Made by a program: the position numbers and the translations under genes
Shown: positions 50,260 to 56,818 of the stretch, piece after piece
Layout: each line of letters starts with the position of its first letter
How positions within the stretch are numbered: position 1 is the stretch's first letter
Notes under the pieces: model-generated
Seen by the model: the letters and a program-made list of their open reading frames with translations, nothing else
Told to the model about the DNA's origin: nothing
The model's database searches: none
NCBI GenBank assembly: GCA_000165425.1
Contig: CT868055.1
Location: 124,001 to 188,000 of the forward strand
DNA length: 64,000 nt
Direction: 5' to 3'
Source of the DNA: Paramecium tetraurelia
Lineage: Eukaryota

Positions 50260-50797
50260 ATTACTAATTTACACAAGATGTGTTTTTAATAAATAATATA
50301 TTATTTCAATCTTAAAAATCTTGATTATTATATCCCTTATGAGATACAGTCTCCAGAATAATTCAGATATAGAAAAACAATTCGAACCAAAAATATGCTA
50401 TATTTTAATAAACATAGTTCATCAAGCAATTATTCTAAGACTATAAAATATTTAAGTTCATTCCATATAAGGTCTTCAAATTAAGTTTTGCCCTTCTGGT
50501 CAAAAAATAGTTATAAATCTGTAATGTTGTATCCTTATGGTTTTCTAGTGAATTTATTAAACACAATCTAATTCTTAAAGAATAGTAGTTCTCCATATAC
50601 TTGGCTTGTTACTTCAAATACCCATCCTAAGTAATTCATTGATTAGCAAGGATCAACTCAAAATATTTGAATGCTTAAAACTTGCCTCCTTGATTGAATG
50701 ATAAATGGTTTTGGGCAATTCCAAAAACTTTTCGTTTAACAAGAGAAAAGAACCTTAAGGCAAAATAATAGTGATTAAAATAATATATATTTATATT

Positions 50798-52027
50798 TCA
50801 TTAAAAGTCTTCTAATTTTGGATGAATATATTTATCCCAATCTTTAGGTCTCTCTATTTTACTCTCTCCTTCTAACCACTTTTTCCTTACTCCATTCTCC
50901 CAAACTCCGACTTGACTCTGTCCATCAGACAACACATATCTCCCAATTCCGTGTTACTTCCCCTGTAACCAATACCCTTCATAACAACGACCATCATTCC
51001 ATTTATATACTCCAAATCCGTGCTTCTTATCATTTAAGTACTCTCCATCATAGTACCTACCGTCTGGCCAATAGTAAATCCCTCTTCCATTCATTTGGTT
51101 TTGCAACCAAAACCCCTCATAGCGCTTTGTATGAACCAATCATCTTACCCTCCCATCAGGCCAATTATATAATCCAAACCCATTTAATTTGTTATCACTC
51201 CACATCCCTTTGTAGGTAGAGCCATCAGCCCATTAATAGGTACCAAATCCTGACTTCTTCCCGTATTGATATTAACCATCATATTTAGAGCTATCTGCCC
51301 AAAATTCCCTTCCTTGACCGTGTTACAAATCCTCAAGCCATTCCCCATCATACTAGGCTCCATCAGCATGGATGTACTTCCCAACTCCATTGGCTCTATC
51401 ATTTTTCCATTCTCCTTCATAAAAGTCGCCATCTAAATGCCAAAACTTACCTCTGCCATTCGCTTAATTGTCTTTCCATTCCCCTTCATACTTAGCGCCA
51501 TCAGACCATATTTGAATACCATAACCATCCCTCGTATTGCCTACCCACTCTCCTTCATAAATTGCTCCACTTTTGAACACATGTTTAGGCCTCTTCTCTC
51601 TGGGCCCTTGCTTATTCGTCTCATCCTGATTCAAATCTTATTAGTTTCGTTTATCCATTCTGTCTTTCTTGAAAATACTAGGATCATTCTAAGACTCTTG
51701 GGTCAGTTAAGGTTATTGTATTTGGGCACTGAAAGCAATAACTTAAATAGGTGCTATATCAGGAGTAGCAATAGGCGTGGGAGTTGGATTAGGAACTTCA
51801 GCTTAGTACTTCTATTCTAACTTCTTGTCTTCCACCTTCTTCAACTCAACTCCTTTACTCACTAATTACTCTAATGAATTACATGAACTTTCATCGTTTT
51901 CTTCTTCCCGAGGTTGCTGAGAATACTGATTCATATTCTGAGAACTCTGCTGTCTAACCTCCGATAATACTACCACTTATTCCTCTCTTTTCTAACAACT
52001 CTGACACTACGAGCATTAACTACCCAT
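50798..52027 (-). CDS. MORN-repeat protein with N-terminal acylation motif
   Basis: Starts MGSQCSQCQSC. About 10 repeats of the YEGEW..G..HG.G...W.DG type. Confidence 0.92.
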
Positions 52028-52051
52028 TTTTAATTATAAAAATATATATTA

Positions 52052-54218
52052 TCATCTGAAAATCTTGTTGACCAAATTGTTAATAAACCTATAGGCATAT
52101 ATTTCTGGAGTTTGAGCGGAGACATTCAAGTTAGGGTTCATGGCTAAGAGTTGCTTGGATGCCTTCTCTGCCATTTTGGACAAGTTCCATTCCTAAAGAT
52201 AATCTATTATGGCTATGTGATAATAGATGTTTGGCTCTTCTTGGGAAGGGAAGGCATTTTAAGGTATGTCTACCAGTTTTTCTACTTTGCCCTAATACTC
52301 ACCCCAATCTATCTTCATTATTAATAGAGAGTAATCAAGCAAGTAAGTATTTTTGAAGAATTCAGCATCTTTAATCAATTGGAATTTCACAAAATCACTT
52401 TGTTGCTGTTCGATCTTGATCCACTTCTCTAAGTTGTCAAAATCGACATCCTTCAATGTGATTTTTGAGAGGTCAATGTCTTTGGGTTTCCCCTTGAGAG
52501 CCTCCCTTGCAACTTCACTGCCCTTCATATCAAAGGTTCTCTTGATGAAAGGACGAGGTACTTGAGATATGTTCCTCATCAAGACCATGTGATAGATGAT
52601 GCCACAACTGGACGACAAGTAATTCATGTCATAGGAGAAGATCCCATAAATCTTATTGATGAGAGATTTCCTGTACTCACTCATATGATGGAAGTACTCT
52701 GGCATTCGTTGTCTGAAGCTGTTCAATTCCCTGTCAGTAATAGTTTTGAGAATCCATTTGTTGTCATAACTGAAGAAGAAGAACTCCCCCGATTTGCCTC
52801 CATCCACATTGATCATATTTTCAATCAACTCAGCATTCTTTTCCAGCGAGAAGGAATCATAAGCATCGATGTCCAAGTTGTCAAATTTAAATAACTAAAT
52901 TTATATGGATAAGATTACATAGTAAAAATACTTGGGAGCCAAGGCAAACATCTTCGGATTCTTGCCCTTAGTGTGTTGGGTTTCCTTAACGTAAAAATTA
53001 AACTCCTTGTTCAGTGCTTAATTATTAAGTTTGTATTTGTCCAGAGTCCGTGCTATAGCTATTTGATCCTCACTCAGAGTTTCCCTTATGAGATGAGCAT
53101 TTAATGTGATATCATTATTGTATGTTGCCCTTGCCTAGATTATCAACTGCGAAGTTCTCTCAGCATCAGTCTCAGATCCATCCACATTCTCCTCCAATTG
53201 AGAATCGTCTAAATACTCTTCAATGTTGTTGAAATACTAAATTATCCCTGCCAACACACTCCTAATTTGAAACATCCTTATGAACTTCTGCACTTCAATG
53301 AATTGTGTGTCCACATCAACAATCTCAATCTCCTTCTTCGGTTGTGGATAAAATGCTTTATGAACCATGTTAACAATCTTACGCAACAGAGCAGGATTCT
53401 TTACTCTCTGATAGCATAGAATGCCAGAACCCAAAGTGTAAAAGAAACAGGTCGATATCAGCATCACTATGTCCAAATTCGCTGGTTTATATGACGGATG
53501 TTCACTCGTTTAGATAAAAGTGCTGAGCATGATCAGAAGAGATAGAACTATGGTCGAGATGATGTACATGACGTATCTGAAGAGCGACGACTTTTTGTTG
53601 GTTCTAAAAGTGTCGTCATTCGGTAAGTTCTAATAGAAGTACCATATTGTGTATAGTGCTGATATGATGTACACAAATTCAAATACGTAAAGAGCCAATG
53701 GCAAGTAGTTCCTTTCCAAGATTATCGTGTTGATGCAGCTGTCCACCACTGTCTTCGTTGCTCCTTTTTAGATTTCAGGCTGGAAAGCAAACAGAATCAA
53801 TGAAATACATAATGTGAACACTAAACAGAAGGAATGAAGGAACATCTTAAACTTCGCATTCGTTTTCAGCACGTTCGTGATCTCCTACCTAAAATAGCTT
53901 GGAGGATTACCTCATCGTGAAGCAGTATGCAAAATTGTATATAAATTAACCTAAAAACCCCAAGTTCTGTGTAAAATCAACCCACTTGCAATAAGACGAC
54001 TCATTCAAGCTTTTCTCTGGATTACTCGGAGAATTAACATCAGGACTTGACATCATCCAATATATTGAAGTACTCAATTGGGAGATCCCCAAAGCAAACA
54101 CTATGTCTCCTGGAGATTTACGACCGACCTTCCATGCCAAATAAGTGAACACAATGAAAGAACTGCAAACCACATTCACACATGCAAAAGCAATTAGTGT
54201 ATAGAAATTCTAAGACAT
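52052..54218 (-). CDS. GPCR-PIPK: 7-transmembrane receptor fused to a C-terminal phosphatidylinositol-phosphate kinase
   Basis: Seven hydrophobic helices with a TM3 Cys (YCKW) and a loop Cys (VDSC), linker VLAGI, then PIPK motifs GKSGEFFFFSYD.KWILKTI, FDMKGS, LDYSLL, IIDYLQ. Two tiny introns give one continuous frame. Confidence 0.9.
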
Positions 54219-55258
54219 ATCAATAATATTATTCAAAATTATAATCCCTTTACCACTTTCAACAATTTCTGAATGTTTCCGACACTTTTTCCATATCATC
54301 TGAATCCATATTCTGATCCCCCTTCTCAGTTGCATAATTTTACTGTTTGAAATGATCCAATCTCTTTCACTGATTCAACTTTCCCCCTTCCTTCTCATCT
54401 GAAGTGAGTGAATCCAACATCAATCTACCTTAGTCTATAAAATAAATCATAAATGGCCTGAAAATCCTTAAATAATTTCTTGTTTTTAGATTCACTTCAG
54501 AAATTTCTTAAACTGTTGCACTTAGTTGCAAAATCAAATTTTGACAGGTACTCGCCATCTTTTAATTACATCTACTACTAAATCGATTTTAATTGATTCT
54601 GTATAACTTTCTATTACCTAAGCTTGAATTTCAGTTGAATTTTCAGTCCAATGCTTTTTATTGATAAAAAACTCTATTCTCATGTATTATTATTTTCTTC
54701 ATCTAATTTGCTTAATCCAATCAGATTGATTTGAAACTTAATTTGCTATCTGAGATTCCCTAAAATCAAATCTAAATTTTAAGCACAACATTTTTGGATT
54801 TTTTGGAATTAGTTAAACTTTAGGAATCAGTGAAAGCATTAATTGATTCCATTCTTGACTATTAATCTAATACCTCATTAATATGCTAAAATCAAAATAG
54901 AATTCCTAGTTCTTCCACGTTATTTTAATCATGTAATTAATATACTTATTCAAATCGATAATCCTTTATATAAGAGATAATTTCTTAATCCGCTATTAGA
55001 TTATCAGTATAATTCTCCTATACATTCTTCTCTTTTCTATCTGATTTATACCCAAAACTCCTCCTTTTTTGGTAATTTTTACATTATTTACATTAGGTAA
55101 ATTTCACTTTCAAAATTAATTCTGCCTTCAGTTCTTTATCACTCTTTACTTGTTTTTTACTAAACCTAATACATTTAAGTAATAGTCTTTTTCAAACTTT
55201 GCCTTGAAATTTAAAGGAAATTGTAGTTGAGGAGATTATTTGATTAATAAATTAATAA

Positions 55259-56818
55259 ATGTCTGGACAAAGACAAGAGATGGAATTGATTAAGCAAGGG
55301 TCAAAATTAGCTAAATCAAGCAAATAAGCATTGAAAAGAACAGGGACGATATTGTCTGATAAATCGAGTTCTTCTTTTGAGGATAGTAGAGTAACTTTGT
55401 TACTATTTGAAAAATACCGAATCGTAGAGATGACCAGATTTTGTGTGATATTTGCATGCTAAATCTTAGCTATCCTATAGGTATACATCTAATCCTATTG
55501 TTTTCTCCTTTTCTAGTACGAAAGCTCGTTTCAGGATCAATTTGAATAGAACTTTGATAGCGAAACTACTCTGCTCCTTTACCTAATTTTCTTTTAAACC
55601 ATAGTTGCAAGTAAATTACCTATTTATCGTAGTCACTCTTACTTTAACCTCCTACCAAGTCCTATTAGCATACCAGAAGAAGGCTATGATTGTGACCCCA
55701 CAAGCCAGTCTTCTAGAATCCAATCTCATTTATGGACTCATAATAGAGGTGTTATTAATGATCCCTTCTCCCACTCCTTTTACTCAGAGGATCAAGGTTC
55801 CATTTCATTAACGTTATACAGACGCCCCGCGCTATTATTACGTGAATGAAATTCTAACTTACCTTCTTACCTGTCGAGTGGCCTTGCTAATCAACATCGC
55901 ACTCAAATTTTAAGCATTTTACAGTAGCTAAATTGGCAGATTATGGTTTACTACTTTAATTCTATTTTTAGTCGTCTCTATTCCACAGATTTTGATACAC
56001 ATTTGGTATTCAAAATATGCATGAAAGACATTCCTGGGTTTACTTTGATGGGCTTATTTTGTGCTGGAATGCTTCTATTTGGCTACAGCATGGAAATTGC
56101 AGAAAGAGCCCTTTTACGCGATGAAACCTCATTTACTAATTACAATGTCGGCCAGTCACTTTGGGTCACTCTCATTACAATTGCTACTGTTGGTTATGGT
56201 GATTTCTATCCCACAACTGATTTAGGCAGGATTTCCATGGCTGTCTGTGTATTCTGGGGTGTTTCCAATACTTCACTCTTTACTGCTATGCTCTACTCGA
56301 TGTTGCAAGCAGAAACCAGCGAGGAATTGGTTTGGGCTTTGCTTGAAAAAGCAAACGTGAGGAATATCATGAAGGCTTTTAGTTAATATTTGTTTGTCAG
56401 AATCCAGAAGCTCAAATTAAAGGCTTCAACTGAAAACAAGAATGATAAAAGCAACTACAAAGAATAAGTTGATTTGATTCAGGAAACTTTAAAAGCAATT
56501 AGTTAAATGAAAAGATAATACAGGGATATCGATGGGGAAGCCACCATGGTCATGGCAAAGAGGAAGTTCAAAGATATAAATAACATGTTTGAAGAACAAA
56601 TTTCTTATTTGAAGGAATCTAAACGACTGCAATTCCTCACAAACATCAATTTTTAATATTGCTATAAATCCAATGTTACTTCAGATTAGAAACATAAGCA
56701 AAGCTCCCCGCACATTCAAACTTATCAAACCGATGACAAGCAAAGTAAAGACGAAGCCTTTTTTGCCAATTTGTAAGACAATGAATCCAATCTCCTTTTG
56801 ATGGACTTTCGTGATTGA
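55259..56818 (+). CDS. 6TM potassium channel, SK/KCa2-like
   Basis: Pore WVTLITIATVGYGDFYPTTDLGR, S3-like IIEVLLMIPSPTPF, and C-terminal helical region. Confidence 0.9.

What the first reader, a model, noticed from the sequence alone, without database searches (positions are those of the whole stretch)
52052..54218. Intact GPCR-PIP kinase fusion: a receptor with a built-in phosphoinositide kinase
Seen: with code 6 and two tiny introns removed, one frame encodes seven TM helices (FYTLIAFACVNVVCSSFIVFTY; PGDIVFALGISQLSTSIYW; YCKWVDFTQNLGFLGQFIYNFAYCF; FLHSFCLVFTLCISLILFAF; LPLALYVFEFVYIISALYTIWYF; YVMYIISTIVLSLLIMLSTFI; IVMLISTCFFYTLGSGILCY). It has the GPCR-type TM3/ECL2 Cys pair, a VLAGI linker, and a PIPK domain retaining GKSG, ILK, DMKGS, DYSLL and IIDYLQ. 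Known: GPCR-PIPKs are described from oomycetes and Dictyostelium (RpkA), with an LRxGI-like linker, and as I recall have been reported computationally in ciliates. Inference: this is a catalytically competent receptor-kinase that could turn an external or lumenal signal directly into phosphoinositide synthesis. I know of no functional work on it in Paramecium. The ORF track splits it into three unrelated-looking pieces.
Basis: partly seen in the sequence, partly recalled or inferred. Interest (0 to 1): 0.8.

Follow-up and report, generated by a model that had tools for sequence, protein, structure and literature searches.

The report
Known Paramecium receptor–lipid kinase fusion
This Paramecium gene really does join a seven-helix, receptor-like membrane domain to a phosphoinositide kinase, but this exact protein was already catalogued in 2018 as one of fifteen such genes in the species, so it is correct and not new, and how it works is still untested.

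Summary
Observation confirmed; not new. The minus-strand gene (54218→52052, code 6, introns of 22 and 24 nt) gives 706 aa, identical at 706 of 706 residues to P. tetraurelia GSPATT00036728001/A0CAY0. That entry and its duplicate are rows in Table S2b of van den Hoogen 2018, among 15 Paramecium GPCR-PIPKs. The 7TM part hits no Pfam GPCR family, but matches its own family profile (98.6 bits; shuffles at most 41.3). The family profile hits solved GPCRs (E down to 9e-9), and the Atlas model aligns to GPCRs (TM 0.64–0.67). The linker has the diagnostic spacing (IR-x9-GI). Catalytic K476, D613 and D657 are intact; loop E669 points to PI4P 5-kinase activity. Stranded mRNA covers the gene; intron 2 removal shows in one contig, intron 1 in none. 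No G-alpha was found in the genome. Best reading: a membrane-tethered PI(4,5)P2-making kinase positioned, perhaps switched, by its own 7TM domain. Activity, ligand and location are untested.

The parts
53911..54218 (-). Exon 1 (ATG at 54218): TM1-TM3, codons 1-103
   Evidence: model identical to P0020
53889..53910 (-). Intron 1, 22 nt, GTA..TAG; must be removed to keep the frame
   Evidence: 22-nt intron at the same place in the duplicate locus L002; no read or contig showed the joint
52919..53888 (-). Exon 2: TM4-TM7, helix 8, IR-x9-GI linker, acidic spacer, start of the kinase domain
52895..52918 (-). Intron 2, 24 nt, GTA..TAG, in frame and stopless; retention would add 8 aa in the kinase N-lobe
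   Evidence: left out in one contig of run X8; same place and length in L002
52052..52894 (-). Exon 3: PIPK catalytic core to the TGA stop
   Evidence: PF01504 E 3.4e-48
53408..54203 (-). Seven-helix GPCR-like bundle (aa 6-263), with C77 (top of TM3, 53990-53988) and C154 (second outer loop, 53737-53735)
   Evidence: C77 in 70 of 77 and C154 in 71 of 77 aligned homologs; helix limits drawn by hand from hydropathy
53348..53407 (-). Amphipathic helix-8-like segment (aa 264-283) after TM7
   Evidence: hydrophobic moment 0.49 for aa 266-283; 0 of 20 differences to the duplicate; R264 in 66 of 77 and P268 in 65 of 77 homologs
53243..53281 (-). LR-x9-GI-type family linker motif, here IR-x9-GI (aa 306-318)
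   Evidence: motif defined in PMC5784254; the Table S2b row carries no 'motif absent' flag
52055..52996 (-). PIPK domain (about aa 401-706): G-loop GKSG, K476, DMKGS..R556, D613, D657, activation loop K666-M667-A668-E669 (52177-52166)
   Evidence: Table S2b gives 407-705 for the kinase region

Best explanation
One intact, transcribed gene makes a 706-aa type IV PIP kinase (GPCR-PIPK). The N-terminus lies outside or in a lumen; seven helices with a TM3/loop-2 disulfide cross the membrane; helix 8, the IR-x9-GI helix and an acidic spacer lead to a cytosolic kinase. The kinase most likely phosphorylates PI4P at position 5 to make PI(4,5)P2 on the membrane that holds it, probably an endosome or food vacuole as for Dictyostelium RpkA. 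The 7TM domain sets where the kinase works and may tune it through its conserved cytosolic face, without a heterotrimeric G protein. Shown here: gene structure, domain order, intact catalytic residues, transcription, purifying selection on both halves. Inferred: activity (my estimate about 0.85), PI4P as substrate (about 0.65), no G-alpha step (about 0.75), vacuole or endosome location (about 0.45), ligand control (about 0.3).
For: Single frame and identity to an annotated protein. K476, D548, K550, R556, D613, D657 and E669 are shared by 77 of 77 aligned homologs (the set was found mainly through the kinase, so this is partly by selection). K476, D548, D613 and D657 align with the catalytic motifs of solved PIP4K2A. 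E669 sits where PIP4K2A has Ala; Glu at this place marks PI4P 5-kinases (PMC3823935). dN/dS against the duplicate is 0.066 for the 7TM part and 0.017 for the kinase (dS about 1.4, so rough). Inner loops plus helix 8 differ at 4 of 63 residues, outer loops at 20 of 61 (Fisher p 2e-4). PF00503 gave 5 matches, 0 above cut-off; 3 of 5 translate as Arf-type GTPases. RpkA is endosomal and phagosomal, and its loss lowers PIP and PIP2 (PMC3206951). P. sojae GK4 seemed unable to bind G-alpha (PMC11708900).
Against: The papers read report no direct in vitro activity, product or ligand for any GPCR-PIPK. The loop reads KM, not KK, which PMC3823935 ties to lower substrate affinity; but KK occurs in only 13 of 72 homologs. 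Best PDB sequence hits are type II kinases by a small margin (62.4 against 60.6 bits), and PMC5784254 places type IV apart from types I-III. The inner-versus-outer bias is not seen in the sister Paramecium subfamily (10 pairs). G-protein-like activity has been reported in ciliates (PMC3226668 passages), and my G-alpha search had no eukaryotic positive control. No location data exist for this protein in what I searched.
Confidence: 0.6

Rival explanations
1. Ligand-gated enzyme: a molecule or condition outside or in the lumen moves the 7TM bundle, and helix 8 and the IR-x9-GI helix pass this directly to the kinase, switching PI(4,5)P2 synthesis on.
For: GPCR-like fold with the conserved Cys pair; near-invariant cytosolic face in this subfamily; no G-alpha found; silencing of P. 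sojae GK4 impairs chemotaxis.
Against: No ligand known for any member. An acidic, poorly conserved spacer of about 80 aa lies between linker and kinase (mean top-residue frequency 0.12). This copy lacks family-typical TM7 residues (P257 to S, N249 to T; the family has them in 55 of 77). Outer halves of the helices differ no more than inner halves between duplicates (8 of 79 against 5 of 80).
Confidence: 0.3
2. Anchor only: the 7TM bundle is an address label or scaffold (for example beside the V-ATPase) and the kinase is constitutive or controlled from the cytosol.
For: Outer loops vary even between orthologs of one copy (9 of 56 against 1 of 63 inside), which fits relaxed constraint; TM7 residues diverged; RpkA binds the V-ATPase through its kinase domain.
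Against: TM1, TM3 and TM5 are identical between duplicates despite dS about 1.4, and the Cys pair is kept across the family; a plain anchor would need less.
Confidence: 0.4
3. Classical GPCR: the 7TM part signals through a heterotrimeric G protein, and the kinase is an attached effector or is silent.
For: GPCR fold; reports of toxin-sensitive G-protein-like activity in ciliates (PMC3226668 passages).
Against: No G-alpha above cut-off in the genome; catalytic residues intact and the kinase is the most constrained part.
Confidence: 0.07
4. Different lipid product or a pseudokinase (PI5P 4-kinase, PI3P 5-kinase, or inactive).
For: Slightly better scores to type II structures; KM loop; type IV products never measured.
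Against: E669 rather than Ala; the three catalytic residues whose loss defines ciliate pseudo-PIPKs are present; weakest hit is PIKfyve.
Confidence: 0.25
5. Artefact: two neighbouring genes, or a broken gene, joined by the reader.
For: Intron 1 removal was seen in 0 of 4 runs; no single record spans 7TM to kinase core; six molecules end at 52798 in 1 of 3 raw runs.
Against: TM4 to the last kinase residue is one open frame of 611 codons whether or not intron 2 is removed. The same 706-aa layout occurs in the duplicate and in three other Paramecium species. Both introns are at the same places in the duplicate.
Confidence: 0.02

Closest known systems
A0CAY0_PARTE / GSPATT00036728001, P. tetraurelia GPCR-PIPK in van den Hoogen et al. 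2018 (PMC5784254, Table S2b)
   Same: The same protein: 706 of 706 residues to the record with these accessions; listed as a non-oomycete GPCR-PIPK, length 706.
   Different: Nothing. The paper lists it and used it for its tree; I saw no experiment on it.
Duplicate A0E6X4 / GSPATT00023769001 (P0018, locus L002)
   Same: 637 of 706 identical, same intron places, same downstream MORN gene, 81% DNA identity over 3743 bases; also in Table S2b.
   Different: Differences cluster in the three outer loops (19 of 56).
Ciliate type IV transmembrane PIPKs, 'PIPK2' group (Leondaritis et al. 2013, PMC3823935)
   Same: 7TM plus PIPK; catalytic motifs kept; KK loop often changed; Glu at +2; 15 members in P. 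tetraurelia.
   Different: Its gene table (Table S2.doc) could not be read, so I do not know which PtPIPK2 label this gene bears.
Dictyostelium RpkA and Phytophthora GK1-GK12
   Same: Same domain order and linker motif class; Atlas feature neighbours include oomycete 7tm_2+PIP5K clusters at 0.97.
   Different: This 7TM part has no Pfam GPCR hit, and it is in a genome where no G-alpha was found, whereas oomycetes have one. No named RpkA or oomycete sequence came back from my searches, so their tree relation was not tested; the two papers disagree on a common origin.
Type I PIP5K and type II PIP4K (solved structures)
   Same: Kinase fold and catalytic motifs (E about 1e-16).
   Different: Those are soluble; this one is tied to a membrane by seven helices.

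Membership tests
GPCR-PIPK / type IV PIPK | N-terminal seven-helix domain before the kinase in one polypeptide | tested here: met
   Single 706-aa frame; 6 clear hydropathy peaks plus a polar TM3; aa 6-278 match a profile of 74 other homologs at 98.6 bits, against at most 4.4 in 200 shuffles and 41.3 in 200 block shuffles.
GPCR-PIPK / type IV PIPK | C-terminal PIPK domain (PF01504) | tested here: met
   E 3.4e-48, 164.8 bits against cut-off 27.
GPCR-PIPK / type IV PIPK | LR-x9-GI linker motif | tested here: met
   IR-x9-GI at 306-318, exact spacing, L to I; strict LR..GI occurs in only 2 of 77 of my homologs and a relaxed form in 22 of 77; the paper does not flag it as absent for this gene.
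GPCR-PIPK / type IV PIPK | Kinase domain groups with type IV kinases of RpkA and oomycetes | tested here: inconclusive
   Quick tree of 99 kinase domains puts it in a 13-row clade (SH-aLRT 99) whose 11 named rows are all ciliate; no named RpkA or oomycete row was available.
GPCR superfamily (fold) | GPCR-type 7TM fold with TM3/loop-2 cysteine pair | tested here: met
   Family profile hits SSTR2 (9.2e-9), Frizzled-6 (9.3e-9) and rhodopsin (1.6e-6) over the 7TM part; Atlas model TM 0.64-0.67 to class A and Frizzled models, each under the service's bar for naming a family. The single sequence hits no GPCR in PDB at E <= 10.
GPCR superfamily (named class) | Match to a Pfam GPCR family above cut-off | tested here: not met
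   None for P0020 at E <= 1; among 19 homologs scanned, only sub-threshold Frizzled (2) and 7tm_1 (1) hits.
GPCR superfamily (function) | Couples to a heterotrimeric G protein | tested here: inconclusive
   No G-alpha above cut-off in the genome, 5 weak matches, 3 read as Arf-type; exon-wise search without a eukaryotic positive control.
GPCR superfamily (function) | Binds an activating ligand | not testable with these tools
   No ligand known for the family.
Type I-like PI4P 5-kinase | Catalytic Lys/Asp/Asp intact and Glu at +2 of the activation loop | tested here: met
   K476, D613, D657, E669.
Type I-like PI4P 5-kinase | Dilysine (KK) in the activation loop | tested here: not met
   KM; KK in 13 of 72 homologs.
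Type I-like PI4P 5-kinase | Measured PI4P to PI(4,5)P2 activity | not testable with these tools
   Needs an assay.

The most novel reading that the evidence does not exclude
In a cell with no G-alpha, this protein is a self-contained receptor enzyme: an outer or lumenal cue moves the 7TM bundle, and its nearly invariant cytosolic face (inner loops, helix 8, IR-x9-GI) switches the attached kinase directly. The two duplicates, which differ mostly in the outer loops, would answer to different cues. That would be the first shown case of direct GPCR-to-enzyme coupling, and Paramecium would be a clean place to test it.
Probability: 0.25. Interest if true: 0.75.

Novelty: already known. Interest (0 to 1): 0.17.

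Why it matters
As a discovery it matters little: the protein is catalogued and has 14 paralogs. The family question is still open: a 2025 paper states that catalytic function, G-protein use and ligands of GPCR-PIPKs lack evidence. This gene pair is a handy test case, because its 7TM part has only one close paralog in the genome, the organism allows feeding RNAi (own knowledge), and no G-alpha was found to confound the result. It does not make the question more testable than RpkA, which is single-copy and already knocked out.

Tried and rejected
Complex prediction of 7TM against kinase was not available either, so a direct contact is untested.
2. Read-through into the downstream MORN-repeat gene (in frame, 24 nt after the stop), which would mimic plant MORN-PIP5Ks: rejected, the spacer is 28 nt and out of frame in the duplicate.
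3. Longer N-terminus from in-frame upstream ATGs (open frame from 54374): not favoured; by my reading of the 90 bases printed, the duplicate has an in-frame stop 16 codons upstream, and orthologs start at the same Met.
4. The 1393-aa P. octaurelia model (P0016) fusing a coiled-coil to the 7TM: taken as a gene-model error; its N-terminal 690 aa match the neighbour of the duplicate and nothing in the window at E <= 0.01.
5. Ligand-pocket divergence between duplicates: only loops differ; outer helix halves do not (8 of 79 against 5 of 80), and the bias is absent in the sister subfamily.
6. Pfam GPCR families: no hit.
7. Tree with RpkA and oomycete proteins: three database searches returned no such named sequence; the careful tree did not finish, only the quick one.
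8. No run holding the stretch is on record as RNA; splice joints did not reach the listing threshold in three raw runs of 58-nt reads.
9. Papers on this gene: identifiers found in 0 main texts; searches listed no functional study in Paramecium. Most subscription papers and supplements are not searched.

Full report
1. What is in the sequence. Under code 6 the minus strand holds an open frame from 53911 to the stop at 52052 and a second one over 54374-53775. A scan for GTA..TAG introns of 20-30 nt gave 7 candidates in 54300-52000. From the ATG at 54218 the unspliced frame stops at codon 148. Removing the 22-nt candidate 53910-53889 opens it to the final stop (714 aa); removing the 24-nt candidate 52918-52895 as well gives 706 aa. 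The second intron is a multiple of three and has no stop, so TM4 to the end of the kinase is one frame of 611 codons either way. Table 11 shows three minus-strand fragments.

2. Identity. The 706-aa model is identical at 706 of 706 positions to P0020, recorded as P. tetraurelia GSPATT00036728001 / A0CAY0. A duplicate lies on contig C678. Its spliced product equals P0018, 637 of 706 identical, with both introns at the same places and lengths and the same downstream gene (81% DNA identity over 3743 bases). Three other Paramecium species have 706-aa relatives (645-696 of 706).

3. Transcription. Three stranded oligo-dT runs gave 395, 312 and 200 reads on 50400-55600. All 12 bins from 52140 to 54227 have depth in all three, almost all in one direction (first mate on +, which in most such libraries means minus-strand RNA): 1.9-11.7, 1.7-8.6 and 0.3-5.7. 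Depth also runs on into the neighbours, so continuity alone does not prove one transcript. One contig of run X8 (RNA by guess) spans 52058-53120 and lacks exactly the 24-nt intron; another spans 53093-53661, TM5 to the spacer. Intron 1 removal was seen in 0 of 4 runs (58-nt reads at low depth; X8 has no cover there). Six molecules end at 52798 in X20 only; I cannot explain this.

4. The membrane part. Hydropathy finds 6 peaks at KD >= 1.2; TM3 is polar. Pfam finds only PIP5K on P0020, and the single sequence hits no GPCR in the PDB. I aligned 77 proteins (A1), chosen by hand, mostly from the 94 of 159 that were >= 600 aa, favouring those with membrane peaks. A profile of the 7TM columns built without the query and its two close relatives matches aa 6-278 at 98.6 bits; 200 shuffles reach at most 4.4 and 200 block shuffles 41.3. 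The full A1 profile hits solved GPCRs over the 7TM part: SSTR2 9.2e-9, Frizzled-6 9.3e-9, rhodopsin 1.6e-6 (hydrophobic bias may add to these). The Atlas's own model aligns to class A and Frizzled models at TM 0.64-0.67, under the service's naming bar. C77 is kept in 70 of 77 and C154 in 71 of 77 rows. This copy departs from the family at some positions: S257 and T249 in TM7 (family P and N, 55 of 77 each) and D152 (family G, 63 of 77). So the fold is GPCR-like but fits no named class.

5. Linker and kinase. After TM7 come an amphipathic segment (moment 0.49) and IR-x9-GI at 306-318, with the spacing of the family's LR-x9-GI motif, then a poorly conserved acidic spacer. PF01504 scores E 3.4e-48. 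K476, D548, K550, R556, D613, D657, K666 and E669 are shared by 77 of 77 rows (partly by selection). E669 aligns with the Ala of type II kinases; Leondaritis et al. state that Glu here marks PI4P 5-kinases and that pseudo-PIPKs lose the catalytic Lys or Asp. The loop reads KM instead of KK, which is usual in this family (KK in 13 of 72).

6. Selection. Against the duplicate, dN/dS is 0.066 (7TM), 0.049 (linker) and 0.017 (kinase), with dS about 1.4, so the values are rough. Outer loops differ at 20 of 61 residues, inner loops plus helix 8 at 4 of 63 (p 2e-4); I drew the limits by hand after seeing the sequences. Outer helix halves do not differ more than inner ones (8 of 79 against 5 of 80), orthologs of one copy show the same loop bias (9 of 56 against 1 of 63), and 10 pairs of the sister subfamily show none. 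The safe reading is a constrained cytosolic face in this subfamily, not proof of new ligands.

7. Signalling context. PF00503 gave 5 matches in the genome, none over cut-off; 3 of 5 translate as Arf-type GTPases and 2 were not caught by my pattern. The search is exon-wise and had no eukaryotic positive control. G-protein-like activity in ciliates has been reported (PMC3226668). A search with TM4-spacer found the gene itself, the duplicate and two weak hits.

8. Tree. A quick maximum-likelihood tree of 99 kinase domains (104 offered, 5 dropped for lacking the anchor motif; P0003 left out as near-identical) places the pair in a 13-row clade (SH-aLRT 99) whose 11 named rows are ciliates. RpkA and oomycete proteins were not among my named hits, so their relation is untested.

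9. What is known. van den Hoogen et al. 2018 (PMC5784254; I saw the abstract, the first part of Results and of Discussion, the first part of Table S1, and Table S2 rows by search) list A0CAY0 and A0E6X4 among 15 P. tetraurelia GPCR-PIPKs. Leondaritis et al. 2013 (PMC3823935; abstract, the PIPK section in full, passages; supplements unreadable) describe 15 type IV transmembrane PIPKs in P. tetraurelia and predict 5-kinase activity. Riyahi et al. [quoted passage not shown] PMC12716839 (passages) says evidence for catalysis, G-protein use and ligands is still missing. PMC11708900 (one passage) notes that GK4 seemed unable to bind G-alpha. The gene's identifiers occur in 0 main texts, and searches listed no functional study in Paramecium; subscription papers and supplements are mostly outside this library.

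10. How it most likely works. A membrane-tethered kinase that makes PI(4,5)P2 from PI4P where its 7TM domain places it, probably on endosomes or food vacuoles, without G-alpha (confidence 0.6). Whether the 7TM part is only an anchor (0.4) or a ligand-gated switch (0.3) is open.

11. Verdict. Novelty: already known. Interest 0.17.

Noticed in passing
window 52027 to about 50700, minus strand: MORN-repeat gene (PF02493, E 7e-35) starts 24 nt after the kinase stop, in frame, with an MG..C..C start that looks lipid-anchored (my recall of the motif). Plant PIP5Ks carry MORN repeats (recalled), but the frame is not kept in the duplicate (28 nt).
   Followed up: yes
window 52895-52918: Intron 2 is a stopless multiple of three in this copy; retention would insert 8 aa in the kinase N-lobe with no premature stop. 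Only the spliced form was seen, in one contig.
   Followed up: partly
window about 54219-54400 and L002 3705-4829: The upstream neighbour looks decayed. The window keeps only a short remnant resembling the end of the coiled-coil gene beside the duplicate (no tblastn hit), and the L002 copy itself shows in-frame TGA stops. Same-strand RNA reaches about 54400-54750, perhaps a long 5' leader.
   Followed up: partly
P0015 (P. primaurelia, 424 aa): A degraded relative, closer in its outer loops to the window copy than to the duplicate, lacking GKSG and the catalytic motifs: probably the decaying second copy in that species.
   Followed up: partly
P0016 (P. octaurelia, 1393 aa): Database model fuses the upstream coiled-coil gene to the GPCR-PIPK; likely a gene-prediction error.
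   Followed up: partly
window 52798 and 52619: Six molecules end at 52798 and three reads have a 12-base loose end at 52619 in run X20 only; unexplained, possibly library artefacts.
   Followed up: no
window 55850-56818, plus strand: Potassium-channel-like pore (PF07885, E 2e-10), last exon of a gene with a spliced intron seen near 55477-55514.
   Followed up: no
P0030-P0177: Many unnamed full-length 7TM-PIPK relatives in metagenomes: 68 of 94 proteins >= 600 aa examined have 5 or more membrane peaks before the kinase (11 of the 94 are named Paramecium proteins). The family is much larger than the 60 non-oomycete proteins catalogued in 2018.
   Followed up: partly
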